A stretch of DNA of 64,000 nt from Candidatus Doudnabacteria bacterium. Its GTDB lineage: Bacteria; Patescibacteriota; Doudnabacteria; UBA920. Positions within the stretch are counted from its first letter, which is position 1; each line of letters starts with the position of its first letter. The stretch lies in the NCBI GenBank assembly GCA_031291995.1, contig JARLHZ010000025.1, positions 156,266-220,265 of the forward strand, given 5' to 3'. The position numbers were made by a program, and so were the translations under genes. Of the stretch, positions 467 through 64,000 are shown piece after piece. The notes under the pieces were generated by a model. The model searched no databases. It had not been told where the DNA came from and saw nothing but the letters and a program-made list of their open reading frames with translations.

Positions 467-483
467 AAATATTTTACTGTAGT

Positions 484-566
484 TTACGAAGTACGAAGTT
501 TTACGAACTTACGAAGTTTTAGTGCACAAACTTTCGTAAGTTCGTACCCGTTCGTACTTCGTAAAA
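484..566. repeat. Hairpin repeat family 1, copy 1 (tttacgaagtacgaa...ttcgtacttcgtaaa), in the rpsB-tsf intergenic spacer
   Basis: Nested inverted repeat: tacgaagtacgaa/ttcgtacttcgta and tacgaacttacgaa/ttcgtaagttcgta. A near-identical copy lies at 3231-3288. Confidence 0.8.
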
Positions 567-584
567 TCTCGTAATATCGTTTAA

Positions 585-2134: not shown

Positions 2135-2144
2135 GAGGAATTAT

Positions 2145-3215
2145 ATGGAAGTTGGATTTAAAAAGATTTTGGACGAGTACGACTCTATTACCACCGAAAT
2201 GTCTTCCGGCGGGTCTTTTGACATGCAGAAGCTGGGCAAAAGGCAGGCTGAGCTGGCGCCTATTGTCGGGAGAATTAGCGAACTGGAAAAATTGGAGAAA
2301 GAGCTGGCCGAGAACCAAAAGCTATTAAGTGACAGTGATCCGGAAATAAAATCTATGGCCCTGGATGAGGGGCGGCGTTTGGAGTCGCGAGTCCTTGATT
2401 TGAAATCCGAGGTTGAAGAAGCCCTTTTGCCTAAAGACGCTAACGATAATAAAAATGTCATTGTGGAAATCCGCGCCGGGGCCGGCGGGGACGAAGCGAC
2501 ATTATTTGTTGCTGAGATGTTTAGGGCTTACGGAAAATTTGCCGAAGAGCTGGGGTTTACGCCGCACATCGTGTCGTCTTCCAAGTCAGACGCCGGCGGG
2601 TTTAAGGAGGTTATCTTTGAAATCCATGGCAGAGTCTCGGCGCAAAAGCACCCTTATCAGATGTTTAAATATGAATCCGGTGTTCACCGGGTGCAAAGAG
2701 TTCCGGAAACGGAAAAAAGCGGACGCGTGCATACCTCCACAGTCACGGTGGCGGTTTTGCCGATTTTAGAAGAGAAAGATTATGCCATTGCCGATAAAGA
2801 TTTAAAAATAGAAGCGACAACTTCGTCCGGACACGGCGGACAGTCGGTAAACACTACATATAGCGCCGTAAGGATCCTTCATATCCCTACCGGTATTACG
2901 GCCCAGTGCCAGGACGAGCGCAGTTTTATGCAAAACAAGGAAAAAGCCCTGGAAGTCATCCGCGCTCGCGTGGCTCAGCATTACGAAGACATCGAGAACA
3001 AAAAAGTTCGTGATCTGACAAAATCACAAATCGGTACCGGCGACCGTTCCGAAAAAATCCGCACCTATAATTTCCCCCAGGACCGCGTAACCGACCATCG
3101 GATTAACCAAAACTTCAACCAGATAAACCTTATAATGGAAGGCAAACTCTCCCAAATTTCTGAAGCTTTGCAAAAGGCAGACTTGGAAATGAAGAAGGAA
3201 GCATTAAAGAAATAA
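2145..3215 (+). CDS. prfA: Peptide chain release factor 1
   Basis: GGQ motif (SSGHGGQSVNTT) and RF1 domain order. Start moved from the track's 2109 to the ATG at 2145 (MEVGFKKILDEY), after a GAGGAA Shine-Dalgarno at 2135-2140. The upstream in-frame portion lies inside the family-3 repeat. Confidence 0.9.
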   Translation: MEVGFKKILDEYDSITTEMSSGGSFDMQKLGKRQAELAPIVGRISELEKLEKELAENQKLLSDSDPEIKSMALDEGRRLESRVLDLKSEVEEALLPKDANDNKNVIVEIRAGAGGDEATLFVAEMFRAYGKFAEELGFTPHIVSSSKSDAGGFKEVIFEIHGRVSAQKHPYQMFKYESGVHRVQRVPETEKSGRVHTSTVTVAVLPILEEKDYAIADKDLKIEATTSSGHGGQSVNTTYSAVRILHIPTGITAQCQDERSFMQNKEKALEVIRARVAQHYEDIENKKVRDLTKSQIGTGDRSEKIRTYNFPQDRVTDHRINQNFNQINLIMEGKLSQISEALQKADLEMKKEALKK

Positions 3216-3230
3216 TTAGGTTTACGAAGT

Positions 3231-3288
3231 ACGAAGTTTTACGAACTTACGAAGTTCGTAAGTTCGTATTTGTTCGTACTTCGTAAAA
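3231..3288. repeat. Hairpin repeat family 1, copy 2, between prfA and prmC
   Basis: Same arms as 484-566 but lacks the central 15-nt ttagtgcacaaactt segment. Confidence 0.8.
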
Positions 3289-3291
3289 TAT

Positions 3292-4203
3292 ATGCGCATA
3301 AACGAAGCGCTAAAAAAGTATCATAAAATCGAAATAGAACTCCTGCTGGCGCATGTGTTAAGAAAGCCTAGGGAGTTCGTTTTTATGAATGCGGGGGTTA
3401 GCTTGCCAGCTATTCAGCTAATCAGGCTATCAGCCTTGGCAAGGCGCAGGCAAAAGGGCGAGCCGCTGGCTTATATTTTGGGTTATAAGGATTTTTACGG
3501 AATGCGGTTTAAGGTCAATCGCTACGTGCTAATCCCCCGCCCGGAGACGGAAATAATTGTGGACCGGGTTATAAATGTAGTGCAGGCCCGTGGCCTGCCC
3601 TCCAGTAATAAAAAGCAGGGCAAGGCCCTGCACTACAAGCCCCCGGTGAGAATTCTCGACATCGGCACCGGCAGTGGCTGCATAGCTGTTTCGCTGGCGA
3701 AACAATTTCAAATTTCAAATATCAAATTTCAAATTACAGCGTCCGATAATTCACAAGACGCACTTAACGTGGCCAAACAAAACGCTAGAATACTTTTGGG
3801 CAAAAAGTCCAATAGTATAAACTATGCTACTTTTTCCAAAATTAAATTTGTACAAAGCGATTTGCTAACGAATATTCAAAATCGCTTTGATATAATCGTG
3901 GCCAATCTCCCCTACGGCTGGAACGAGTGGAAGAATAATACTTCAGCCGACAGCGCCGGCTTGAAATTTGAGCCAAGCCAGGCTTTGTATACAGCCGATC
4001 ATGGTCTCTATCAGATAAAACGATTATTAATGCAAATCTCTGCTAGGCAAATCAAACCCAAGCTGGTTTATTTGGAATTTGACCCGCGCCAAAAAAAGGA
4101 ATTATCATTTGCAATAAAAAAAATCCTGCCTTCCGCAGAACTTAATTTTTTCAAAGATTATGCCGGCCTGTGGCGCTACGCGGAAATTAAATTCGCATCG
4201 TAA
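3292..4203 (+). CDS. prmC: Release factor glutamine N5-methyltransferase (HemK/PrmC family)
   Basis: SAM-binding motif ILDIGTGSGCIAV and an NLPYG variant of the NPPY catalytic motif. The position right after prfA is the conserved pairing. Confidence 0.75.
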   Translation: MRINEALKKYHKIEIELLLAHVLRKPREFVFMNAGVSLPAIQLIRLSALARRRQKGEPLAYILGYKDFYGMRFKVNRYVLIPRPETEIIVDRVINVVQARGLPSSNKKQGKALHYKPPVRILDIGTGSGCIAVSLAKQFQISNIKFQITASDNSQDALNVAKQNARILLGKKSNSINYATFSKIKFVQSDLLTNIQNRFDIIVANLPYGWNEWKNNTSADSAGLKFEPSQALYTADHGLYQIKRLLMQISARQIKPKLVYLEFDPRQKKELSFAIKKILPSAELNFFKDYAGLWRYAEIKFAS

Positions 4204-4210
4204 AAATGGA

Positions 4211-4254
4211 TTTTGGTAGACAAAACGTGCGGCCGCACGTTTTGTCTACCAAAA
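4211..4254. terminator. Perfect 44-bp palindrome: bidirectional intrinsic terminator between convergent prmC and the deacetylase gene
   Basis: ttttggtagacaaaacgtgcggccgcacgttttgtctaccaaaa. The GC-rich stem is flanked by T-runs on both strands. Confidence 0.8.
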
Positions 4255-5193
4255 TTATCGGGGACGCGTTAGTTTTGCTGGGGTGGTGGTGGAAGATTCT
4301 GTCCTGTGAAGAAGAACATCTTCAAATCTCCGCAAAGTCTCGGCTCCATGCACGCGGACGCGCGGGATGCGCATCAAATCGTCCAGGTTTACAATATCCC
4401 CTTCGTGAACCGTTATGCCCATAACGTATCCGGCCTTTTTGGCTTCGACAATGTAAGTTGGGGTGTAATGCCCGTACGGGTATATTAATATGTTTGTCGT
4501 TATGTCCAAGCGGTTTTTAATGTCGGCCATGGATCCGCTAAGTTCCCCATAAATATATCCGGCTGTATATTTTGGGTTAGAACCGTCAAAATGTGTTTGG
4601 GTGTGGGAAACAACTTCTTCGCCATTCATATAAGCTGCTGCGATGTCGCCCCACGGAGCATAAAAATTAAGTCCGGCCGAGGTGCCGGGTTTTTTGGTAA
4701 TAATGCCGAAGCTGCCGCTGAAACCGTACTTTTTTAAAATCGGTACCGCGTTTTGGAATACGTCTTCGTAACCGTCGTCAAAAGTAAACACAACCGGTTT
4801 TTTGGGCAATACAAATTTGCCCAAACTGGCCAGGTAGATATCGTTCAAACTGACGCTTTGGTACCCGTTTTCCTTTAGCCATTTGGCCTGCGCCTCAAAC
4901 GAGACTGAGCGTACGGTTAAATCGGCCTGAATTTTGTCCGCGCCCGCAGGCAGGCTACCTACGTGGTGATACATTAATATTGGCAGAGCTATCGCGCGGC
5001 CTTTTTGCACGGCTTCGGGCGGTACGGCCAAAGGTTGGAAGTCCCCGGATTTGCTGATGTTTACGGCATCCAGGGAATTTGCTTTCGCCGCGGCCGGTTT
5101 TTTGGAGTAATAAAAATACGCGGCGCCGAAAATCGATGCCACAGCCAGTAACATAGCAATGCCTAAAAAATAAATTTTATTTCCGCGGCTCAT
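4255..5193 (-). CDS. Polysaccharide deacetylase (NodB-homology domain), N-terminal membrane anchor
   Basis: TFDDGY and MYHHVGS motifs of NodB/PgdA-type deacetylases; N-terminal hydrophobic segment. Confidence 0.8.
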   Translation of the reverse strand: MSRGNKIYFLGIAMLLAVASIFGAAYFYYSKKPAAAKANSLDAVNISKSGDFQPLAVPPEAVQKGRAIALPILMYHHVGSLPAGADKIQADLTVRSVSFEAQAKWLKENGYQSVSLNDIYLASLGKFVLPKKPVVFTFDDGYEDVFQNAVPILKKYGFSGSFGIITKKPGTSAGLNFYAPWGDIAAAYMNGEEVVSHTQTHFDGSNPKYTAGYIYGELSGSMADIKNRLDITTNILIYPYGHYTPTYIVEAKKAGYVMGITVHEGDIVNLDDLMRIPRVRVHGAETLRRFEDVLLHRTESSTTTPAKLTRPR

Positions 5194-6797: not shown

Positions 6798-6801
6798 AGG
6801 T

Positions 6802-6930
6802 AGTAATCGCGAAAATACGAATATTTTATAATATACGAAACCGTTCACTGTCAGCTGTCTTTTCCATTAAAGATAAGCTGACAACTAACGGTTTTGTATA
6901 TTAATTTAGATTTGTATATTTGCGACTACT
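6802..6930. repeat. MITE-like repeat family 2, copy A (degenerate)
   Basis: About 40-bp terminal inverted repeats agtaatcgcgaaaatacgaatatttt... / ...tttgtatatttgcgactact. The internal cactgtcagc...gctgacaact inverted repeat is shared with copies at 9053-9180 and 31141-31270. Confidence 0.8.
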
Positions 6931-9052: not shown

Positions 9053-9180
9053 AGTAATCGCTAATATACGAATCATTTATAATATACGAAGCGGTCCACT
9101 GTAAGCCGCCTGTTCTACGAAGTAATGCCTACAACTGACGGCTTCGTATATTAATTTTGATTCGTATATTCGCGATTACT
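9053..9180. repeat. MITE-like repeat family 2, copy B (best-preserved TIRs)
   Basis: agtaatcgctaatatacgaatcatttataatatacgaagcgg ... ccgtcttcgtatattaattttgattcgtatattcgcgattact, a near-perfect 40-bp TIR pair, immediately upstream of dnaE. Confidence 0.85.
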
Positions 9181-9199
9181 ATCGTGATTGCAAAAAACT

Positions 9200-13532: not shown

Positions 13533-13574
13533 CGGCCCGTATTGAAGGACGAAATCAATAAATGGCGCTTCCGT

Positions 13575-13637
13575 GTGTCATCCCGACCGAGGTTCGTCAA
13601 TGGAATTTAATGGACGGACGGAGCGGAGGGATCCCTT
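13575..13637. repeat. Family 3 repeat, partial copy (left TIR gtgtcatcccgaccgag + ggagggatccctta core)
   Basis: Shares the left TIR and central core with 13951-14026 and 2022-2134; the right TIR is missing. Confidence 0.65.
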
Positions 13638-13650
13638 ATCCTTCTAAATT

Positions 13651-13941
13651 ATGCAAGACAGCCAGTATTTTGTATACATAATGTCCAGCGTCAGCGGAAC
13701 CTTTTATATAGGAGTAACCAATGATTTATATAAAAGAGTTTACCAACATAAAAGTAATATAATCGAAGGTTTTACGAAAAAGTACGAATGCCATAAACTG
13801 ATATATTTTGAAGAGACTTCCGATATAGAGAGCGCAATTTTAAGAGAAAAGCAGTTAAAAAATTGGAATCGCAAGAAAAAAGAATTTTTAATCGCGACAA
13901 AGAACGCAATCTGGAAAGATTTAAGTTTAGATTGGAAATAA
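13651..13941 (+). CDS. Small GIY-YIG nuclease-domain protein
   Basis: YFVYIM...GTFYIGVTNDLYKRVYQHK is the GIY-YIG motif; 96 aa. Flanked by family-3 repeat copies. Confidence 0.75.
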   Translation: MQDSQYFVYIMSSVSGTFYIGVTNDLYKRVYQHKSNIIEGFTKKYECHKLIYFEETSDIESAILREKQLKNWNRKKKEFLIATKNAIWKDLSLDWK

Positions 13942-13950
13942 ATTATTAGT

Positions 13951-14026
13951 GTGTCATCCCGAGCGAGTGCAGCCGAGTCGAGGGATCCCTCCGCTCGTCG
14001 GCTGCACTCCGCGGTCGGGATGACAC
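13951..14026. repeat. Family 3 repeat, 76-bp imperfect palindrome (gtgtcatcccgagcgagtgcagccgagtcgagggatccctcc...gtcgggatgacac)
   Basis: Blocks gtgtcatcccga / gtgcagccga / gggatcc are mirrored on both arms. It lies between the GIY-YIG gene and the thrS start. Confidence 0.8.
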
Positions 14027-14043
14027 ATAATGGAGATACGGGT

Positions 14044-21285: not shown

Positions 21286-21315
21286 CCTTTGATGCCCTAG
21301 AGCACGCCTGCCAAT

Positions 21316-21352
21316 CGGACCGATTTTCTCGGCCGAGAAAATCGGTCCGATA
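21316..21352. repeat. Perfect 37-bp palindrome (tcggaccgattttctcggccgagaaaatcggtccga), family 4 copy 1
   Basis: Shares the outer atcggac and core ttttctcggccgagaaaa with 21896-21932; the middle triplets differ with compensatory changes. Confidence 0.8.
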
Positions 21353-21360
21353 CCAATTTT

Positions 21361-21885
21361 ATGGGCGTGCCAAGAAAAAATCTGCTGACCGCATTAATTT
21401 TGCAATTGTTCGACCCCGACACTCCCCTTCTTCCCGTGGAGTCGACTTACGATTTTATAAAAAGGAAGAGGGATTGCCGCCGGCCGCAATATCGCGATTG
21501 TTTGAAAGGCTTGCGCCGACGCGGGGTAATTGAGATTGTCAAAAAACGCCAGCGGGAATTCGCAAAACTTACCAAGAAAGGTTCGCTAAAAATTTTGTTG
21601 GAAAAAGCGGAAATTAAAACGGTTCAACCTTGGGACGGCAAATGGAGATTGGCAATATTCGATATTCCGGAAAGATTTAACAACTCCCGCGACAATTTTC
21701 GCCATCTTTTGAAGCAGAACGGTTTTGTGAAATTGCAAGCCAGCGTATTTATCAGTCCATACCCAATTTCACGAGCAGCGCTAACATACCTAAAGGAAGT
21801 TGGCCTTGATCATTTTGTACGAATCTTAAAAATTGAGGAGTTGGATAATGATTCCGCATTAAAAAAGAAATTTGGACTTAAATAG
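21361..21885 (+). CDS. PaaX-family-like transcriptional regulator
   Basis: The C-terminal WDGKWRLAIFDIPERFNNSRDNFRHLLKQNGFVKLQASVFISP matches the PaaX_C signature (W-G-W...iPE...R...L...GF..L...SVWisP). The N-terminal region is a winged-helix-like basic segment. Confidence 0.55.
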   Translation: MGVPRKNLLTALILQLFDPDTPLLPVESTYDFIKRKRDCRRPQYRDCLKGLRRRGVIEIVKKRQREFAKLTKKGSLKILLEKAEIKTVQPWDGKWRLAIFDIPERFNNSRDNFRHLLKQNGFVKLQASVFISPYPISRAALTYLKEVGLDHFVRILKIEELDNDSALKKKFGLK

Positions 21886-21895
21886 CTTTTTACCA

Positions 21896-21932
21896 TCGGA
21901 CTCTTTTTCTCGGCCGAGAAAAAGAGTCCGAT
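21896..21932. repeat. Perfect 37-bp palindrome (tcggactctttttctcggccgagaaaaagagtccga), family 4 copy 2
   Basis: See 21316-21352. Confidence 0.8.
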
Positions 21933-31140: not shown

Positions 31141-31270
31141 AGTAATCGCGAATATACAAATTTATTATTAATATACGAAGCGGTACACTGTAAGTTAATT
31201 TTTCTATTTTGATCGGCAGACAACTCTTGGTTTCGTATATTAATTTAAGATTCGTATATTCGCGATTACT
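31141..31270. repeat. MITE-like repeat family 2, copy C
   Basis: agtaatcgcgaatatacaaatttattattaatatacgaagcgg ... ggtttcgtatattaatttaagattcgtatattcgcgattact. It fills exactly the spacer between two minus-strand genes. Confidence 0.85.
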
Positions 31271-31619
31271 AGTTGACCCTGGTTAAAAACAGTACCGCGG
31301 AAAGTAAAATAAACTCCACAAAAAAACTTACCAGCGCGCTTAACGCGGCCAAAAAATCCTGCCTATTCTTAATTGCTCGAAAAAGAGTGAAATTAACAAT
31401 TAAGATTGCCATTCCAATAGCCGGAATAAAGTAGAGGTTCCGACCCGGCCCATACCATAAAACCCCGACTAATACGTTATAATGAAGCGCAAGAGGGCTT
31501 TGACCGGGTTTGATTTTGAAATAAAGGAACAAAAATGTTATAATGTTAAGCGTTAAGGATAACGCCCAAAGAAACCAAACATTTCTGAAATAGTTTTTTA
31601 TAATCGAAATAAAATCCAT
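31269..31619 (-). CDS. Small multi-TM membrane protein (possibly GtrA-like)
   Basis: Three to four hydrophobic helices. Start placed at the internal ATG to avoid overlap with the divergent GT39 gene; start uncertain. Confidence 0.4.
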   Translation of the reverse strand: MDFISIIKNYFRNVWFLWALSLTLNIITFLFLYFKIKPGQSPLALHYNVLVGVLWYGPGRNLYFIPAIGMAILIVNFTLFRAIKNRQDFLAALSALVSFFVEFILLSAVLFLTRVN

Positions 31620-38536: not shown

Positions 38537-38568
38537 GGGGTTAGTATTTAGTAGTTAGAATATAGCAT

Positions 38569-38994: not shown

Positions 38995-38999
38995 AATTC

Positions 39000-40487
39000 C
39001 TAATTCCTAATTCCTAATTCAGTTTTCTTGTTTTCGTTTTTCATCGGCGGGAAAATTACGGTTTCGCGGATGGAACGGTCAGAAAGTATAGCAAAGAGTC
39101 TTTCCGAGACTCCGAAGCCGGCGGCCGGCGGCATGCCGTATTCCATGGCTTCCACATAGTCCTCGTCGAGCATTTGGGCTTCATCGTCTCCTGCCGTTCG
39201 CAGTTTCATCTGATCTTCAAAACGGGCGCGCTGGTCGAGCGGGTCGTTTAACTCACCAAAACCTTTGCCCAGCTCCGTGCCATAGGCCAAAATTTGCATT
39301 CTTTGGACTAATTTGGGGTTGTTCGGGTCGCGTTTGGCTAACGGTTCAAGCTCAACCGGCTGGTCCACCAAAAAGACCGGTTTGTTTGTTGGAATATGTT
39401 CGCGTACTTTTTTAAAAATTAAATCTATTAACCGGCCGCGGCCGGAAAAGTCTTCATACTTAATATGATTTTTGTCGCAATATTCCTTTAGCTGATTGTC
39501 CGTAGCTACCATTAAGTCGATATTTGTATGTTTTTTGAAAATTTCGACGTAGCTAACTTTTTCCCAGTCGCCGCTCCAATCGACTTTTTGGCCTCGCGAG
39601 CTGATTTCCAGAGTGCCAAAAGTTTCCCTGATGACAAATTGGTACATCTTCTGGCAAAATATCATCAGTTTTTCAAAATCGCCATACGCCCAATAAAATT
39701 CCAGTTGGGTATAATCCTGCAAATGTTCGGTATCTATGCCCTCATTGCGAAAAATACGGCCGATTTCAAAAACTTTTTCATACCCGGCCACCAACATTTT
39801 TTTTAGCGGCAGTTCGAGGCTTATGCGCAAATAAAAATCGCGATCAAGGGCGTTATGATGCGTAATAAAAGGCTTGGCTTCGGCACCGCCGACTGTGGCT
39901 TCCAAAACAGGCATCTCTACTTCCAAAAAACTTTTTTCCAAAAGATAACGGCGGAAGGAATTCCAAAATGTCGCCTTTTTAATGAACAGCTCCTTTGATT
40001 CTGGATTTGTTAAGATATCAAGATATCTTTTGCGCAGACGGATCTCTTCGTCCTGAATGCCGAAATGTTCGGAAGGCAAAGGCCTGAGGCTTTTGGCTAA
40101 CAACCGGAAACTCGCGGCCTGTAAAGTTTTTTCGCCTGTTTTGGTTTTAAAAAGTTTTCCGGTAGCTTCCACAAAGTCTCCGCTGTCAAAATTGGCCAAA
40201 AAAAACTTAAACTGCTCTTGTCCGACTTCGTCCGCTTTCAATAACATCTGAACTTTGGCCGTGCCATCGTCAATATGCGCGAATATAATCTTCCCCATAT
40301 CACGAAAGCTTCTAATCCTGCCGGCCAAGGAAATGCTTTTATCGGCTAGGCTGTCAAAATCATCAAGAGCTTCTTTGTTCGTGTTGGTTCTGCTGCTGGT
40401 GGTCGGATACGGATCAACCCCGGACTGCCTGATATTGTCCAGTTTTTGTTTACGGTTTTTGATTATGTCTTCTAAACGATCAGCCAT
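39000..40487 (-). CDS. lysS: Lysyl-tRNA synthetase, class II
   Basis: N-terminal OB anticodon-binding domain plus class II core; 495 aa. Its stop is only 5 nt from the NUDIX start. Confidence 0.95.
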   Translation of the reverse strand: MADRLEDIIKNRKQKLDNIRQSGVDPYPTTSSRTNTNKEALDDFDSLADKSISLAGRIRSFRDMGKIIFAHIDDGTAKVQMLLKADEVGQEQFKFFLANFDSGDFVEATGKLFKTKTGEKTLQAASFRLLAKSLRPLPSEHFGIQDEEIRLRKRYLDILTNPESKELFIKKATFWNSFRRYLLEKSFLEVEMPVLEATVGGAEAKPFITHHNALDRDFYLRISLELPLKKMLVAGYEKVFEIGRIFRNEGIDTEHLQDYTQLEFYWAYGDFEKLMIFCQKMYQFVIRETFGTLEISSRGQKVDWSGDWEKVSYVEIFKKHTNIDLMVATDNQLKEYCDKNHIKYEDFSGRGRLIDLIFKKVREHIPTNKPVFLVDQPVELEPLAKRDPNNPKLVQRMQILAYGTELGKGFGELNDPLDQRARFEDQMKLRTAGDDEAQMLDEDYVEAMEYGMPPAAGFGVSERLFAILSDRSIRETVIFPPMKNENKKTELGIRN

Positions 40488-41093: not shown

Positions 41094-41108
41094 TTATTAT
41101 TGGAATAC

Positions 41109-41160
41109 GTAGCGTGCCGATTTATCGGCGATCACGTCCGCCCATAAATGGGCACGCTAC
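41109..41160 (-). promoter_or_regulatory. Structured element in the greA 5' leader
   Basis: Outer stem gtagcgtgcc/ggcacgctac encloses the palindromic hairpins gccgatttatcggc and gcccataaatgggc. It lies between the predicted promoter and the greA ATG. Confidence 0.5.
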
Positions 41161-41191
41161 ACATTGATTATTTTATAAATAGGCTGCGTAT

Positions 41192-54193: not shown

Positions 54194-54269
54194 CGCGGGA
54201 TAGAGCAATTGGCAGCTCGCAAGGCTCATAACCTTGAGGTTCCCGGTTCGAGTCCGGGTCCCGCAACCA
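54194..54269 (+). tRNA. Initiator tRNA-fMet (CAT)
   Basis: CGCGGGA...GCTCATAACC...GGTTCGAGTCCGGGTCCCGCAACCA. It has the C1:A72 mismatch and A11:U24 pair characteristic of bacterial initiator tRNA, is strongly collinear with E. coli tRNA-fMet, and carries an encoded CCA. Confidence 0.9.
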
Positions 54270-54393
54270 AGCTAATTTTTGATTCATTTGATGGAAAATT
54301 AACTTGGTTTAAAACCTAAAATCCTAAAATCGTGACAGATTTTAAAGCTTTCTGTCGAAAGTTTTTTTATTTAAGATACCGCAGGTTTTTGTT

Positions 54394-54470
54394 GCCGGGG
54401 TAGCTCAGTTAGTTAGAGCGTGGGACTCATAAGCCCAAGGTCAGAGGTGCAATTCCTCTCCTCGGCACCA
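54394..54470 (+). tRNA. tRNA with CAT anticodon (elongator Met or lysidine-modified Ile2)
   Basis: Acceptor gccgggg/cctcggc; D-arm tagctcagttagttagagc; anticodon loop ctCATaa; encoded CCA. The T-loop is an unusual TGCAATT and there is an A31:G39 mismatch. Confidence 0.7.
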
Positions 54471-54594
54471 CTCGACTCGCTTTGGCTTGCGCCAATACTC
54501 GCTCGTGGTTTCGGCTATTGGGAAGCCTCAACCACCAATTTAATTCGAAGCGACCCGAGTGGTGTCATCTTATACCACTAAATATTAAAAATAT

Positions 54595-54671
54595 GGGACC
54601 GTAGCTCAATTGGTTAGAGCACTCGCCTGTCACGCGAGAGGTTACGGGTTCGAGCCCCGCCGGTCCCGCCA
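54595..54671 (+). tRNA. tRNA-Asp (GTC)
   Basis: Acceptor gggaccg/cggtccc; anticodon stem-loop ctcgc-ctGTCac-gcgag; T-loop ttcgagc; encoded CCA. Confidence 0.85.
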
Positions 54672-58138: not shown

Positions 58139-58375
58139 ATGTACTATGTTTATCTGCTAAAACTATCCAGCGGTAAAATCTACACCGGCTCATCGCCCGA
58201 TTTAAAACGCAGAATCCCTGAGCACGAGAAAGGTAAATGTGAGGCCACAAAAAACTTCCGGCCGTTAAAATTATCTTGGTACTGCGCTTTTGAAACCAGG
58301 CTTCTAGCCAGACAGTTTGAAAACTATCTGAAAACCGGTTCAGGGCAAGCATTTAGAAATAAACATTTTGCTTAA
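58139..58375 (+). CDS. Small GIY-YIG nuclease-domain protein, second copy
   Basis: MYYVYLLKLSSGKIYTGSSPDLKRRIPEHE is the GIY-YIG motif; 78 aa. Confidence 0.7.
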   Translation: MYYVYLLKLSSGKIYTGSSPDLKRRIPEHEKGKCEATKNFRPLKLSWYCAFETRLLARQFENYLKTGSGQAFRNKHFA

Positions 58376-59632: not shown

Positions 59633-60055
59633 TTAATGTCTTTTCTGCGAGTGCTTGCGCGCGACTCTTATTCGGCTTTGATTTTTATTTAAAATCGAAG
59701 CGATGACCGTGTACTCTTCCGCCGACATTTTCTTTTTGGCCATTTCATTTTTCGCCCGCTCCACGGCTTCCTCTGCTTTCTTAATATCTATATCGTAATG
59801 ATGTTCCGCGGCGTCGGCCAAAGCTATAACTTCGCTGTTTTTGCGCACCTCTATAAAACCACCCGAAACATGGATAAAATCTTCTTTTCCCTGTCTCTTG
59901 GCAATCAATTCACCCGGAACCAGTGTTGCTACAAGCGGAATATGCCCGGGCAAAACAGTAATCTGTCCCATTTCCGTTGGGCAAGACAAACTGTCCAGTT
60001 CTTCGTTAAGAACCGTGCGTTCGGGGGTGACGAGCTGGAAGTGCAATTTTTGCAT
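59633..60055 (-). CDS. atpC: ATP synthase F1 epsilon subunit
   Basis: LVTPERTVLNEE...VSGGFIEV beta-sandwich plus C-terminal helices. Confidence 0.85.
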   Translation of the reverse strand: MQKLHFQLVTPERTVLNEELDSLSCPTEMGQITVLPGHIPLVATLVPGELIAKRQGKEDFIHVSGGFIEVRKNSEVIALADAAEHHYDIDIKKAEEAVERAKNEMAKKKMSAEEYTVIASILNKNQSRIRVARKHSQKRH

Positions 60056-60061
60056 ATGGCT

Positions 60062-60115
60062 TTCTACTAAATACTAAAAGATACTAAAGATACGAAATAC
60101 TAAACTTGAGATACT
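60062..60115. repeat. Left 54-bp terminal inverted repeat of GxxExxY cassette 1 (tctactaaatactaaaagatactaaagatacgaaatactaaacttgagatacta)
   Basis: The reverse complement of 60535-60588 matches it along its whole length, with a few mismatches. It overlaps the stop codon of the enclosed gene. Confidence 0.8.
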
Positions 60116-60501
60116 ATGTTGACTATTCGTTTACATACCACCCCTGTCTTGGTAAAGTTAGCCAGTATGCCAAGTTTGACATGCTCCAATTTGATATAAT
60201 CACTGAGCTGTTTAATATTTTTTATTCCGAAATTTTCGTGTTTCTTGATCTCCAAGATAATTTTGGCTTCGCCAATTTTGATTAGAAAATCCGCATAATA
60301 AATTCCGATAAACTTTCCCTCGTAATATAGCTTGATTGGATGTTGCTCAACAAAATCAATCCCAGCAAGTTTTAGAGCAATTGCAACAGCTTTTTGGTAA
60401 TGTTTTTCCAATAACTCGCCGCCCAGGTCTTTAAAGACCTTTATCAGAATTCCTACGATTTTATAATATTCATCTTTATAAACCAGGTCTTCCCTTAACA
60501 T
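60100..60501 (-). CDS. GxxExxY-family protein (PD-(D/E)XK nuclease-like), cassette 1
   Basis: YKIVGILIKVFKDLGGELLEKHYQKA N-terminus (GxxExxY motif G-E-L-L-E-K-H-Y); 133 aa. Inserted between atpD and atpC. Confidence 0.7.
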   Translation of the reverse strand: MLREDLVYKDEYYKIVGILIKVFKDLGGELLEKHYQKAVAIALKLAGIDFVEQHPIKLYYEGKFIGIYYADFLIKIGEAKIILEIKKHENFGIKNIKQLSDYIKLEHVKLGILANFTKTGVVCKRIVNIVSQV

Positions 60502-60534
60502 TTTCGTCTATTATTTTTATTTTCGCAAATATCT

Positions 60535-60588
60535 GTACTATCTAAGTTTAGTATTTAGTATATTTAGTATTCTTTCGTATTTAGTAGA
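60535..60588. repeat. Right terminal inverted repeat of GxxExxY cassette 1
   Basis: tactatctaagtttagtatttagtatatttagtattctttcgtatttagtagag is the reverse complement of the left TIR. Confidence 0.8.
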
Positions 60589-60593
60589 GAGGA

Positions 60594-62006
<1,413 letters not shown>

Positions 62007-62019
62007 TTATTAATAGATA

Positions 62020-62310
62020 TTATTGCTCCTTATTTTTTTTCTGAGACCGGCCGTACTTATCCGGATTTTCGTGGAATTCCTTAACCAATTCGTCAACTTT
62101 CTTGCCGACATCCGTGCCTAATATTTCAGCGGTGTAACGTTTGACATCATCAATGTCCTCAGCGATGTGGACAATATAATTATGTGGCACCTTTTGCAGT
62201 CTTGGGTCAAGATTTCTCTCGGGCAATCTGTTTGCAAGAAAACCCATTAACGACGCTTGGTACTCTTCTTCCGGGGTAAAATCCGGTAAATAATCCAAAA
62301 ATTCCGACAT
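62020..62310 (-). CDS. Hypothetical 96-aa protein inserted between atpG and atpD
   Basis: Intact ORF tightly packed (9-nt and 16-nt spacers) between the gamma and beta genes; acidic, lysine-rich tail; no recognisable family. Confidence 0.5.
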   Translation of the reverse strand: MSEFLDYLPDFTPEEEYQASLMGFLANRLPERNLDPRLQKVPHNYIVHIAEDIDDVKRYTAEILGTDVGKKVDELVKEFHENPDKYGRSQKKNKEQ

Positions 62311-62319
62311 AATAATATG

Positions 62320-63195
62320 TTATTCTAATGCTATTTTTCCTGCCGTTATTTCGGCTAATTCAGTAGTAATCTTATTTTGCCTTAACTTGTTGTAAGTCAG
62401 CGTTAAGTCGCTTATTAAATCCCCTGCCGCTTCGGTGGCGTTTTTCATCATGACCATGCGGGCGGATTGTTCGGAAGCTTCGGATTCCAGAATTGTTTGG
62501 TATATTTGCGATTCTATTATGCGCGGCAACAAGCTTTTCATAACCTCTTCGGCCGTAGGTTCAAACAAATATTCGGATTTTTCTTTTTCTTCTTCGGTTT
62601 TCGCGTCCACCGCGTGCTCCACCTGCTTTTCAAACGGCAGAAGCTGTTTTACCGTGGGCTTTTGCGCCAGGGTGGAAACAAAATGGTTATAGTAAATAAA
62701 AACTTTTTCGTATTTCCCGGAGTTATATAAATCGGCAATAAATTCCGCAATCGGGGCAATATCGGTCGTGGTTATTACCCGGTCAAACTTTTCAAAATCC
62801 GCCACAACTTCTTTATGGGTTTTAACCATCACATCGCGCCCCTTGCGCCCGTAAGTAATAAAGTCCGTATCTAAACCTCTTTGAGCGGTGCTTTGCAGAA
62901 CCATGTTCAATAAATTAGTGTTGAGGCTTCCGACCATGCCGCGGTTAGACGACAAGACCAATACGGCTACTTTTTTCGCATCGGGATAAGTTTTAAGCAA
63001 ATCGGCCATAACCTGTTCCGTGGAAGACAAGTTTAAAATTAATTCCCAAGCCAAAGTGGAATACGTGCGGCTCTTTAAAGTCGCGTCCTGGCTCTTGCGC
63101 ATCTTAGCCGCGCTCACCATTTGCATAGCCCGCGTCACCTTGCGAGTGCCGCCGATGCTTTTTATTCGAGTTTTTAATTCCTTAATTCCGGGCAT
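62320..63195 (-). CDS. atpG: ATP synthase F1 gamma subunit
   Basis: MPGIKELKTRIKSIGGTRKVTRAMQMVSAAKMRK N-terminus and the C-terminal helix ...ITTELAEITAG. Confidence 0.9.
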   Translation of the reverse strand: MPGIKELKTRIKSIGGTRKVTRAMQMVSAAKMRKSQDATLKSRTYSTLAWELILNLSSTEQVMADLLKTYPDAKKVAVLVLSSNRGMVGSLNTNLLNMVLQSTAQRGLDTDFITYGRKGRDVMVKTHKEVVADFEKFDRVITTTDIAPIAEFIADLYNSGKYEKVFIYYNHFVSTLAQKPTVKQLLPFEKQVEHAVDAKTEEEKEKSEYLFEPTAEEVMKSLLPRIIESQIYQTILESEASEQSARMVMMKNATEAAGDLISDLTLTYNKLRQNKITTELAEITAGKIALE

Positions 63196-63200
63196 ATTTG

Positions 63201-63224
63201 TAGAAGCGAATTTGACGCGAAATT
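63201..63224. repeat. Left TIR of GxxExxY cassette 2 (tagaagcgaatttgacgcgaaatt)
   Basis: Matches the reverse complement of 63690-63713 (tagaagcgaatttgtcgcgaaatc) at 22/24 positions. Confidence 0.75.
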
Positions 63225-63245
63225 ACACGCGACTTTGACGCAAAC

Positions 63246-63659
63246 TTATTTATTCCTTGCTAAATCGTAAATTCTTCTTCTTATTTCCAATTTTTCGGGG
63301 TCAAAGTTTATAAGAAAGCCTAACTTGTAACTTGTGGCTTTAAAATAGTACCAAAATTGTTTCTCATCTGCCTTAGTTATAAATGGTTTGTTTTTTACTT
63401 CAACTAGTATTGCCTCATTCCCCACTTTATCCGGGACGTACGTACCAACCTTAGCGCCTTCAAAATAAATATCTATTCTTTTTTGGGACTCTACCTGTAA
63501 GCCTTGTTTTTCTAATGCGATTGTAAGAGCTTTGTCTACCACCGATTCTTTAAAGGCACCGCCAAACTGTTTATATACTTCACGACATGCGGCAACAATT
63601 TTGTAGCTTTCGTCAGGGTATAATAGATCCTTGTTGCGAATTTCTGGCCGGTTATCCAT
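63246..63659 (-). CDS. GxxExxY-family protein (PD-(D/E)XK nuclease-like), cassette 2
   Basis: YKIVAACREVYKQFGGAFKESVVDKAL N-terminus; 137 aa; paralog of 60100-60501. Inserted between atpA and atpG. Confidence 0.7.
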   Translation of the reverse strand: MDNRPEIRNKDLLYPDESYKIVAACREVYKQFGGAFKESVVDKALTIALEKQGLQVESQKRIDIYFEGAKVGTYVPDKVGNEAILVEVKNKPFITKADEKQFWYYFKATSYKLGFLINFDPEKLEIRRRIYDLARNK

Positions 63660-63689
63660 ATTTTCGCTTCGCGTTAATTTCGCTTAGCA

Positions 63690-63713
63690 GATTTCGCGAC
63701 AAATTCGCTTCTA
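63690..63713. repeat. Right TIR of GxxExxY cassette 2, overlapping the atpA stop codon
   Basis: See 63201-63224. Its last three bases (cta) are the rc TAG stop of atpA. Confidence 0.75.
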
Positions 63714-64000
63714 TTTAATCGTCTGCACAAAGTTTTCAATCGCGGTTTTCAATTTCGCTTCGGTCGATTCTGATAACTCTTTAGTAGTCGCGATTTCCGA
63801 CAACACATCTTTCGCGTTCGTTGCCATATACTGGTGGAACTTTGTTTCGGTCTCGGCCATTTTATCCACGGGAATTTGATTGAAATAACCGTTGTTGACC
63901 GCGTACAAAATAGTCACTTGTTTTTCCAAAGAGAAAGGACGGTACTGTCCCTGTTTTAAAACTTCGGTCATTCTGCGTCCGAGGTCCAGCGTGCGCTGGG
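63711..64000 (-). CDS. atpA: ATP synthase F1 alpha subunit, C-terminal part (gene continues beyond window end)
   Basis: The reverse frame is open to the window edge: ...QRTLDLGRRMTEVLKQGQYRPFSLEKQVTILYAVNNGYF... matches the conserved alpha-subunit C-terminal region (TELLKQGQYSP...). Confidence 0.85.
   Translation of the reverse strand, partial: QRTLDLGRRMTEVLKQGQYRPFSLEKQVTILYAVNNGYFNQIPVDKMAETETKFHQYMATNAKDVLSEIATTKELSESTEAKLKTAIENFVQTIK

What the first reader, a model, noticed from the sequence alone, without database searches (positions are those of the whole stretch)
60062..60588. PD-(D/E)XK (GxxExxY) nuclease gene inside a 54-bp-TIR cassette inserted between atpD and atpC
A 527-bp unit sits exactly in the spacer between the ATP synthase beta and epsilon genes. 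It is bounded by long imperfect terminal inverted repeats (tctactaaatactaaaagatactaaagatacgaaatactaaa... and its reverse complement) and encodes only one 133-aa GxxExxY-family protein. This is the architecture of a miniature transposon- or homing-element-like selfish cassette, not a housekeeping gene. It breaks up a normally contiguous operon whose gene order is universally conserved. It suggests GxxExxY proteins are the mobility or maintenance nuclease of a so-far uncharacterised family of tiny mobile elements.
Basis: partly seen in the sequence, partly recalled or inferred. Interest (0 to 1): 0.8.

Follow-up and report, generated by a model that had tools for sequence, protein, structure and literature searches.

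The report
Tiny hairpin-bounded nuclease cassette in operon
A 526-bp unit carrying one small nuclease gene between long inverted repeats really has been inserted between two ATP synthase genes, and it belongs to a previously undescribed family of tiny repeated elements, mostly gene-less hairpins, scattered through the genomes of Patescibacteria (ultra-small bacteria).

Summary
Window 60063-60588 is a discrete unit, TCTAC...GTAGA. It has ~48-56-nt imperfect inverted arms and one 133-aa GxxExxY/PDDEXK_3 ORF, 5 nt after the atpD stop and 7 nt before the atpC start.

The arms are not low-complexity chance: score 35.5 against at most 18 in 2000 shuffles.

The same ORF lineage (62-92% aa identity) with the same termini sits at five different operon junctions in other Patescibacteria. 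More distant relatives have atpD and atpC directly adjacent.

A scan for the 16-nt terminus found about 40 ORF-less hairpins of 66-145 nt with identical ends. Several occur per genome, 87-95% identical at unrelated sites.

Protein (dN/dS ~0.05) and arms (93-100% identity against ~65% at four-fold sites) are both under purifying selection. Other GxxExxY lineages, including a second cassette between atpA and atpG, carry different arm motifs.

Best reading: a mobile, long-persisting hairpin-element family with a cognate PD-(D/E)XK nuclease. It is organised like REPIN-RAYT systems and built like 23S rRNA intervening sequences. That the nuclease drives mobility is inferred, not shown.

The parts
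60063..60588 (-). Whole cassette (526 bp), ends TCTAC...GTAGA. It lies 5 nt after the atpD stop and 7 nt before the atpC start.
   Evidence: Ends defined by alignment with copies at other loci. Flank distances.
60544..60591 (-). Upstream arm in the direction of transcription. It holds five TAC[T/G]AAA heptamers, including two ~14-nt direct repeats spaced 26 nt apart.
   Evidence: the repeat finder I1 and D3. 93-98% identical to L001 and L129, against ~65% at four-fold sites.
60502..60543 (-). A/T-rich leader between the upstream arm and the ATG. No promoter-like site on the coding strand.
   Evidence: 70-83% identity among orthologous copies.
60100..60501 (-). GxxExxY / PDDEXK_3 ORF, 133 aa. 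Predicted minimal PD-(D/E)XK nuclease with E31, D70, E83 and K85 invariant.
   Evidence: dN/dS ~0.05.
60060..60107 (-). Downstream arm. It overlaps the ORF stop codon.
   Evidence: 95-100% identical to L001 and L129.
60594..62003 (-). atpD (F1 beta), the host gene upstream of the insertion.
59633..60055 (-). atpC (F1 epsilon), the host gene downstream of the insertion.
63201..63713 (-). Second cassette of the same architecture, between atpA and atpG. It has a 137-aa GxxExxY ORF (63246-63659, 33% identical to the first). Its arms, 63201-63246 and 63668-63713, are each two ~23-nt repeats of an unrelated GCGAA-type motif.
   Evidence: 20.5 against at most 14 in shuffles.
471..577 (.). ORF-less hairpin with TACGAAG heptamer arms, filling a stop|start spacer. 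Probably a non-autonomous relative from a different subfamily; the link is tentative.
3221..3287 (.). Second copy of the TACGAAG hairpin, 5 nt after a stop codon and 4 nt before the next start.
38540..38562 (-). Solitary degenerate arm (ACTACTAAATACTAAC) in a 32-nt spacer. Possibly a remnant.

Best explanation
The unit is the gene-bearing member of a family of palindromic hairpin elements in Candidatus Doudnabacteria and related Patescibacteria.

Anatomy (shown):
- Each element has two inverted arms of about 30-55 nt built from 3-5 iterated heptamers (here TAC[T/G]AAA).
- The ends are sharp: TCTAC...GTAGA.
- Most copies are bare hairpins of 66-145 nt.
- About one copy per genome in the MAGs sampled carries, in the hairpin loop, a promoter-less ~130-aa PD-(D/E)XK nuclease gene. 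It is co-oriented with the host operon and presumably read through from it.

Proposed mechanism (inferred):
- The nuclease, probably a dimer, recognises the heptamer arrays of its own arm type, both in cis and on the gene-less copies.
- It cuts at or near the termini.
- Host replication or repair then copies or re-inserts the element. Gene-less hairpins are therefore mobilised in trans, as in REPIN-RAYT or MITE-plus-autonomous-element pairs.

Why the insertion is tolerated (inferred):
- The arms pair in the polycistronic mRNA, as in a 23S rRNA intervening sequence.
- The atpD stop and the atpC start are then only about 12 nt apart across the base of the stem, similar to the 2-16-nt spacers at empty sites.

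Shown: element boundaries, multiple insertion sites, gene-less copies, lineage-specific arms, and selection on both protein and arms. Inferred: binding, cleavage, the mobilisation pathway and RNA-level neutrality.
For: 1. Same lineage, same termini, five junctions:
- atpD|atpC: window, L001/L002, L129, L023.
- DUF8128|traG: L003-L005.
- pilB|pilC: L006-L008.
- x|thrS: L029.
- purN|purD: L084.

2. State of the atpD|atpC junction in relatives:
- Empty in L132 (atpC 62% identical, 16-nt spacer) and L133 (50%, 2-nt spacer).
- Holds a different IR-flanked cassette (23S_rRNA_IVP) in L131.
- Holds a GerE-like ORF in L130.

4. Dispersed copies inside one genome:
- Copies are 87-95% identical while their flanks are unrelated: WARV01 (L067, L091, L125) and the 1.2-Mb CAYYWQ01 contig, which has one ORF cassette plus at least 5 hairpins.
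- Arm interiors are more alike within a genome than between genomes. Hairpin-hairpin p = 4e-8; cassette-hairpin p = 0.01.

5. Purifying selection:
- dN/dS about 0.05.
- Arms 93-100% identical against 64-69% at four-fold sites, including conserved non-complementary positions.

6. Arm motif tracks protein lineage. I examined 24 GxxExxY genes; 18 are clearly IR-flanked and two more (Prevotella, Gemmatirosa) are partial or adjacent. Motifs seen:
- TACKAAA at 62% aa identity or more.
- TCTACGAAC at 56%.
- TACGAAT at 48%.
- CACGAAT in Flavobacterium, 36%.
- GCGAA, ACGCTG and ACGCCG in lineage 2.
- ACAGAT in a third lineage.

7. Orientation: in 19 of the 20 cassettes whose neighbours were recorded, both adjacent genes run the same way as the ORF. 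The exception is L150, whose downstream neighbour converges. No own promoter was found.

9. Dimer hint: many ~265-aa tandem-fused family members.
Against: - No biochemical evidence, and no closely related filled/empty pair with alignable flanks.
- PD-(D/E)XK enzymes hydrolyse DNA but are not known to carry out strand transfer, so 'paste' needs another activity.
- No target-site duplication.
- The same architecture encloses 23S_rRNA_IVP (four-helix bundle, no known catalysis) and GIY-YIG genes. The cargo may therefore be a passenger, and the hairpin may be the mobile or targeted part.
- The atpD|atpC copy is old (dS 0.7-1.0) and looks vertically inherited.
- Four GxxExxY genes outside Patescibacteria or on plasmid or viral contigs lack flanking IRs: L143, L144, L145, L151.
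Confidence: 0.6

Rival explanations
1. RNA-level element. The arms exist to form a long double-stranded RNA stem in the operon transcript. The stem would be an RNase III processing or stability signal, as in 23S rRNA intervening sequences. The hairpins serve, or are neutral to, host mRNA metabolism, and the GxxExxY gene is a passenger lodged in the loop.
For: - The architecture matches the Coxiella IVS: 428 nt, 28-bp stem, heptamer repeats, one small ORF, excised by RNase III (PMC4990558).
- The elements lie inside transcription units, 2-15 nt from the neighbouring stop and start codons.
- The predicted stem closes the ORF.
- 23S_rRNA_IVP cassettes share the design, and one sits at atpD|atpC.
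- CPR rRNA genes carry non-intron insertions that encode IVP, GIY-YIG or nothing (PMC11270868).
Against: - The sense strand does not fold better than the antisense strand: 13 against 21 elements, p = 0.16.
- T/G alternation inside the heptamers is not compensated across the arms, and the mismatches are conserved. Sequence motif is being kept, not pairing.
- Arm motif tracks protein lineage.
- This reading does not explain dispersed, near-identical copies at unrelated sites.
- It is compatible with, rather than exclusive of, the best explanation.
Confidence: 0.2
2. Free-standing homing endonuclease gene. The nuclease cuts the uninterrupted atpD|atpC junction in genomes that lack it, and the cassette is copied in by homologous repair. 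The hairpins are scars or immunity sites.
For: - It is a nuclease gene between conserved genes, co-oriented and without a promoter.
- Empty alleles exist.
- The atpD|atpC junction is occupied in four diverged lineages, and by an unrelated cassette in L131.
- pilB|pilC is hit independently by two GxxExxY lineages, L006 and L148.
Against: - One protein lineage (62-92% identity) occupies five unrelated junctions with no shared target sequence beyond YY|..|RRA.
- Homing genes do not need, and normally lack, long terminal inverted repeats.
- Homing does not predict dozens of gene-less hairpins with conserved ends at unrelated sites.
Confidence: 0.1
3. Domesticated host function. GxxExxY is a housekeeping nucleic-acid enzyme, for example for repair or RNA processing. 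Its gene merely sits among repeats that arise for other reasons.
For: - Strong purifying selection, and slower evolution than atpC (89% against 82% identity in L129).
- Long residence at one site.
- Very large family: 21,966 clusters at 50% identity.
Against: - Patchy presence at any given junction, including empty sites.
- Several divergent paralogues per genome, each with private arms.
- Positions that split otherwise universal operons: atp, nusG-rplK, pilB-pilC.
- No match to any named functional family.
Confidence: 0.08
4. Chance: generic AT-rich low-complexity spacers that happen to be self-complementary.
For: The arms are AT-rich and built from short repeats. This genome has several other hairpin families.
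Against: - Shuffle controls: 0 of 2000 shuffles reach the observed score.
- The control gene set.
- Identical 16-nt ends at unrelated loci in about 20 genomes.
- Arms far better conserved than synonymous sites.
Confidence: 0.01

Closest known systems
REPIN-RAYT systems (REP doublets plus a REP-associated tyrosine transposase)
   Same: - A low-copy gene flanked by inverted copies of the same repeat that occurs many times, gene-less, as hairpin-forming doublets in intergenic DNA.
- Each protein lineage has its own repeat type.
- Several systems can share one genome.
- Long vertical persistence under purifying selection (PMC3116915 and PMC5581495, listed).
   Different: - The protein is a ~130-aa PD-(D/E)XK nuclease, not an HUH/Y1 transposase. 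Pfam finds only PF13366.
- The arms are heptamer arrays of 30-55 nt rather than a ~20-nt REP.
- The host is Patescibacteria.
- The gene-bearing copy sits at different loci in different genomes.
23S rRNA intervening sequences with an S23p / 23S_rRNA_IVP ORF (Coxiella, Leptospira)
   Same: - Size of about 430-530 nt.
- Terminal inverted repeats that form a 28-50-bp stem.
- Tandem heptamers in the arms.
- A single small ORF in the loop.
- Short ORF-less forms also exist.
- Origin and mobility are unresolved (PMC4990558).
- IVP cassettes of this design occur beside the GxxExxY ones, and one is at atpD|atpC.
   Different: - It lies in spacers of protein-coding operons, not in helix 25 or 45 of the 23S rRNA.
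- The ORF is a nuclease.
- RNase III excision is untested here.
Bacterial MITEs: Correia/NEMIS, ERIC, RUP
   Same: - Units of 70-150 bp bounded by terminal inverted repeats.
- Found in intergenic regions and co-transcribed with neighbouring genes.
- Many copies per genome.
(From established knowledge.)
   Different: - Those have target-site duplications (TA for Correia), and a cognate enzyme is either unknown or a DDE transposase.
- Here there is no duplication, and a candidate cognate nuclease lies inside a full-length copy.
Free-standing homing endonuclease genes (T4 seg and mob genes; GIY-YIG, HNH, PD-(D/E)XK)
   Same: - A small nuclease gene without a promoter, wedged between conserved genes.
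- Presence or absence varies among relatives.
   Different: Homing genes have no terminal inverted repeats, one cognate site each, and no gene-less repeat population.
Hjc-type Holliday junction resolvases and Cas4 / SSO0001 nucleases
   Same: - A minimal PD-(D/E)XK core of similar size to Hjc.
   Different: - No detectable sequence similarity.
- No Cas4 Fe-S cysteines.
- No CRISPR context.

Membership tests
GxxExxY protein family (TIGR04256 / Pfam PF13366 PDDEXK_3) | Score above the curated HMM cut-off | tested here: met
   83.4 bits against a cut-off of 35; 89.4 bits against 22.
GxxExxY protein family (TIGR04256 / Pfam PF13366 PDDEXK_3) | PD-(D/E)XK catalytic residues (helix-1 E, D, E-x-K) and the fold | tested here: met
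   [not shown]
REPIN-RAYT system | The associated protein is an HUH/Y1 (IS200-like) transposase | tested here: not met
   Only PF13366 was found. The fold is PD-(D/E)XK.
REPIN-RAYT system | The gene is flanked by inverted copies of a repeat that also occurs as many gene-less palindromic doublets in the same genome | tested here: met
   CAYYWQ01 has one cassette plus at least 5 hairpins. L003 has one cassette plus 2 hairpins in 8 kb.
REPIN-RAYT system | Single copy per repeat type, vertically inherited | tested here: inconclusive
   The atpD|atpC copy is shared by four lineages at dS 0.7-1. But the same lineage is at four other sites, and no complete genome could be scanned.
23S rRNA intervening sequence (IVS) | Inserted in a 23S rRNA helix | tested here: not met
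   It lies between atpD and atpC. There is no rRNA in the window.
23S rRNA intervening sequence (IVS) | Terminal complementary sequences form a long stem around an optional small ORF | tested here: met
23S rRNA intervening sequence (IVS) | Excised from the transcript by RNase III | not testable with these tools
Classical TIR transposon / MITE | Terminal inverted repeats and multiple dispersed copies | tested here: met
Classical TIR transposon / MITE | Target-site duplication | tested here: not met
   36 of 39 elements have no abutting direct repeat.
Classical TIR transposon / MITE | A transposase of a known class (DDE, serine, tyrosine, HUH) | tested here: not met
   The only ORF is PDDEXK_3.
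Free-standing homing endonuclease gene | One cognate target site, equal to the uninterrupted insertion site | tested here: not met
   Five unrelated junctions for one lineage. The only shared flank feature is YY|..|RRA.
Free-standing homing endonuclease gene | Empty alleles in relatives | tested here: met
   L132 and L133, but only at 50-62% atpC identity.

The most novel reading that the evidence does not exclude
GxxExxY proteins are the enzymes of a new class of prokaryotic mobile DNA.
- The class would consist of hairpin elements of about 70-150 bp, mobilised in trans by a ~130-aa PD-(D/E)XK nuclease.
- The nuclease gene sits inside a 470-540-bp full-length copy. That would make it the smallest autonomous element known in bacteria.
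- The 23S rRNA intervening sequences and the non-intron rRNA insertions of CPR bacteria would belong to the same broad class of hairpin-bounded cassettes, which have alternative cargos (GxxExxY, 23S_rRNA_IVP, GIY-YIG).
Probability: 0.35. Interest if true: 0.9.

Novelty: new variant of a known kind. Interest (0 to 1): 0.8.

Why it matters
- **A function for an unknown family.** PF13366/TIGR04256 is listed as function unknown (PMC3424549), and a full-text search found no functional study of it. It comprises about 22,000 clusters at 50% identity. A reproducible link between these genes, lineage-specific inverted heptamer arrays and populations of gene-less hairpins gives the family its first testable functional hypothesis.
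- **A second REPIN-RAYT-like system.** It would be a non-homologous example of that kind of long-term repeat-enzyme partnership, in the reduced genomes of Patescibacteria, where selfish repeats are unexpected.
- **A route into the IVS question.** The origin of 23S rRNA intervening sequences has been unexplained for more than 30 years. This offers a concrete way to study it.
- **Tolerance of insertions.** Universally conserved operons (atp, nusG-rplK, pilB-pilC, pur) accept insertions when these are packaged as self-pairing stem-loops placed exactly between a stop codon and the next start codon.

Tried and rejected
- **Target-site duplication.** I looked for one; 36 of 39 elements have none. 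The single 5-bp match in L001 is not shared by its orthologues.
- **Shine-Dalgarno donation.** I tested whether the element end supplies a Shine-Dalgarno sequence to the downstream gene. Rejected: only 6 of 58 window genes have any such motif.
- **RNA-strand asymmetry.** I tested for extra G-U pairing on the sense strand. There is no bias.
- **Co-oriented neighbours as a sign of targeting.** 34 of 39 elements lie between co-oriented genes, but the base rate is 74%, so this is weak evidence. The orientation of the ORF itself is the stronger signal.
- **Known RNA families.** Rfam found nothing except three tRNAs elsewhere in the window.
- **Defence or phage origin.** No credible PADLOC or PHROGs match.
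- **Solved structures by sequence.** None.
- **Terminators and promoters.** No T-tract follows the hairpins, and there is no promoter on the coding strand.
- **Integron attC cassette.** Rejected: the arms flank the ORF on both sides, the cassettes are solitary inside operons, and none of the genes called next to the cassettes carries an integrase domain. The only recombinase seen is a large serine recombinase two genes upstream in L140.
- **Viral contigs.** The scan gave one distant homologue without inverted repeats.
- **Plasmids.** Four distant homologues: two without inverted repeats, one partial (Prevotella), one with an adjacent heptamer hairpin (Gemmatirosa).
- **Closely related empty site.** I could not find one. 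The metagenome scan returned only five atpC relatives.

Full report
**1. What is in the window**

The ATP synthase operon runs on the minus strand:
- the 3' end of atpA (63711-63971);
- atpG (62320-63195);
- a 96-aa ORF with no family match (62020-62310);
- atpD (60594-62003);
- atpC (59633-60055).

Between atpD and atpC lies a 133-aa ORF (60100-60501). It scores well above the curated cut-offs of TIGR04256 (GxxExxY) and PF13366 (PDDEXK_3).

The ORF is enclosed by inverted arms at 60060-60107 and 60544-60591: 48 nt, 88% complementary, about 56 nt if gaps are allowed. Each arm is an array of five TAC[T/G]AAA heptamers.

Comparison with copies at other loci places the ends at 60063 and 60588 (TCTACTAAATAC...GTATTTAGTAGA). 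That is 5 nt after the atpD stop and 7 nt before the atpC start.

**2. The repeat is not chance**

- Dinucleotide-preserving shuffles of the two flanks never approached the observed score: 35.5 against a maximum of 18 in 2000.
- Among 361 genes from Patescibacteria loci, the flank-IR score has a median of 8.5, and the top ranks are almost all GxxExxY genes.
- The transcript is predicted to close the whole ORF in one long stem (z = -6).

**3. The arms travel with the gene**

Close homologues of the protein (62-92% identity), all carrying the same TCTAC...GTAGA termini, sit at five different junctions:

| Junction | Loci |
|---|---|
| atpD\|atpC | window, L001/L002, L129, L023 |
| DUF8128\|traG-like | L003-L005 |
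| pilB\|pilC | L006-L008 |
| upstream of thrS | L029 |
| purN\|purD | L084 |

In 19 of the 20 cassettes whose neighbours were recorded, both adjacent genes run the same way as the ORF. The exception is L150, where the downstream neighbour converges. No promoter-like site is seen on the coding strand. This fits expression by read-through from the host operon.

**4. Empty sites exist**

Five atpC relatives were found in metagenomes:

| Locus | atpC identity | State of atpD\|atpC |
|---|---|---|
| L129 | 82% | same cassette |
| L130 | 79% | GerE-like 101-aa ORF, no IR |
| L131 | 55% | a different IR-flanked cassette encoding a 23S_rRNA_IVP protein |
| L132 | 62% | empty, 16-nt spacer |
| L133 | 50% | empty, 2-nt spacer |

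The junction is thus occupied, differently occupied or empty in different lineages. The empty sites are too diverged to give a base-precise boundary.

**5. Gene-less copies are the majority**

Apart from chance hits in AT-rich genomes, it returned about 40 hairpins of 66-145 nt. These have the same ends and the same heptamer arms but no ORF. They come from about 20 Doudnabacteria and other Patescibacteria MAGs.

- They fill stop|start spacers, 2-15 nt from each codon.
- They have no target-site duplication (36 of 39).
- In the direction of transcription their flanks read YY|element|RRA.
- Copies within one genome are 87-95% identical while their flanks are unrelated. Examples are three copies in MAG WARV01 and two in the 1.2-Mb contig CAYYWQ01. 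That contig also holds one ORF-bearing cassette and at least three further hairpins.
- Beyond the 16 nt used for ascertainment, arm interiors are more similar within a genome than between genomes. This holds for hairpin pairs (p = 4e-8) and for cassette-hairpin pairs (p = 0.01).
- For example, the L003 cassette and its two neighbouring hairpins share the unusual AGCGAAATACTAAAC variant.

**6. Both parts are under selection**

Between the orthologous atpD|atpC copies, dS is 0.7-1.0 and dN/dS is about 0.05. Synonymous sites are saturated in comparisons with the other sites.

The arms are 93-100% identical where four-fold sites are 64-69% and the leader is 70-83% identical. The positions where the two arms do not pair are also conserved. 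Combined with the uncompensated T/G alternation in the heptamers, this shows that sequence motif is maintained, not only pairing.

The sense strand shows no folding advantage over the antisense strand.

**7. The protein**

- The AlphaFold model is confident: pLDDT 95.3.
- E31, D70, E83 and K85 are invariant.
- There is no solved structure by sequence and no match in defence or phage libraries.
- The family has about 22,000 clusters at 50% identity. Many are tandem fusions of about 265 aa, which suggests a dimeric working unit.

**8. Generality**

A second cassette lies between atpA and atpG (63201-63713). Its protein is 33% identical to the first. Its arms are two 23-nt repeats of a GCGAA-type motif.

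Relatives of that second protein, each with their own arm motif:

| Junction | Locus | Arm motif |
|---|---|---|
| pilB\|pilC | L148 | AAACGCTG |
| nusG\|rplK | L153 | ACGCCGTAA |
| after a Wzy gene | L150 | ACGCTGA |

Other lineages carry these motifs:
- ACAGAT: L001 second copy; L023 second copy, between atpG and atpD.
- CTACAAAT/CTACGAAT: L084.
- TCTACGAAC: L140.
- TACGAAT: L136.
- CACGAAT: Flavobacterium fluvii L134.

Arm motif therefore tracks protein lineage.

The rule is not universal. Four genes lack flanking inverted repeats: a viral contig, a Fusobacteria plasmid, Persicobacter and an Elusimicrobia MAG. Prevotella and Gemmatirosa show partial or adjacent heptamer hairpins.

**9. Relation to known systems**

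The organisation is that of REPIN-RAYT systems: one flanked gene plus many gene-less palindromic copies, lineage-specific repeats and long persistence (papers listed). The enzyme, however, is unrelated to RAYTs.

The anatomy is that of 23S rRNA intervening sequences: about 430 nt, a 28-bp terminal stem, heptamer repeats and one small ORF. The origin of those sequences is unresolved (PMC4990558).

In the same genomes, 23S_rRNA_IVP genes and a GIY-YIG gene sit in the same kind of hairpin. CPR rRNA genes are reported to carry non-intron insertions that encode IVP, GIY-YIG or nothing (PMC11270868).

The literature search found no functional or mobility study of GxxExxY/PDDEXK_3. The superfamily survey lists its function as unknown.

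**10. Verdict**

The core of the interpretation, a tiny TIR-bounded selfish cassette, is supported and can be extended to a whole family with gene-less derivatives.

Three things remain inference:
- that the nuclease binds the heptamer arrays;
- that it cuts the termini;
- that the element is tolerated because the arms pair in the mRNA and bring the stop and start codons together.

The main caveats are these:
- There is no biochemistry.
- No base-precise empty site was found.
- No target duplication is present, and no known strand-transfer chemistry exists for this fold.
- Non-nuclease cargos occur in the same architecture.
- The locus set was ascertained on the terminus, so it is enriched by design.

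Noticed in passing
window 63201-63713: A second GxxExxY cassette between atpA and atpG. It has a 137-aa ORF at 63246-63659. Its arms are unrelated in sequence: TAGAAGCGAATTTGACGCGAAAT, twice per arm.
   Followed up: yes
window 62020-62310: A 96-aa ORF between atpG and atpD with no Pfam or NCBIfam match and no flanking inverted repeats. Relatives carry other small ORFs in the atp operon: a GerE-like ORF in L130, a 197-aa ORF in L001, and a GxxExxY cassette at atpG|atpD in L023.
   Followed up: partly
window 13574-14027: A 96-aa GIY-YIG ORF (13651-13941) enclosed by GC-rich inverted repeats: 13574-13592 with 14009-14027, and 13621-13636 with 13981-13996. A second small GIY-YIG ORF at 58139-58375 has no such repeats.
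   Followed up: partly
window 21314-21932: A 174-aa ORF with a PaaX_M (Cas2-like) domain (21361-21885), bracketed by two similar 38-nt perfect palindromes at 21314-21351 and 21895-21932.
   Followed up: partly
window 471-577 and 3221-3287: Two copies of an ORF-less hairpin with TACGAAG/TACGAAC heptamer arms. Each fills a stop|start spacer. No cognate gene is in the window.
   Followed up: partly
window 6801-6923, 9054-9182, 31141-31272: Three copies of a ~125-nt hairpin element: TAGTAATCGCGAATATACGAA...TTCGTATATTCGCGATTACTA. Its CGCGAA/ATACGAA motifs loosely resemble the arms of cassette 2.
   Followed up: no
window 38540-38562 and 38996-39022: A solitary degenerate TCTAC-type arm in a 32-nt spacer, and a (TAATTCC)n run upstream of a NUDIX gene.
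   Followed up: no
window 41104-41165; L033 4964-5210: A GC-rich palindrome (..CCCATAAATGGGCACGCTACAC..) in the window recurs nested inside a 247-nt TCTAC element of another MAG. Short GC-rich palindromes are also nested in several hairpins (L003, L093, L100, L107, L118).
   Followed up: no
whole window: Only 6 of 58 called genes have a Shine-Dalgarno-like motif upstream; leaders are A/T-rich. Three tRNA genes lie at 54194-54668.
   Followed up: partly
L056 3142-3614; L128 7182-7634; L131 1607-2002: 23S_rRNA_IVP (four-helix-bundle) genes enclosed by inverted arms of iterated motifs (GAAATAGAT, AAGATATAA). The L131 copy sits exactly between atpD and atpC.
   Followed up: partly
protein representatives (P0218, P0219, P0221 and others): Many GxxExxY family members are ~265-aa proteins with two tandem GxxExxY domains, which suggests a dimeric functional unit.
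   Followed up: no
L084 (MAG JAJYWK01), 2139-5170: One purine-biosynthesis operon carries two GxxExxY cassettes of different lineages (HAD|purE and purN|purD) plus an ORF-less TCTAC hairpin, all within 3 kb.
   Followed up: partly
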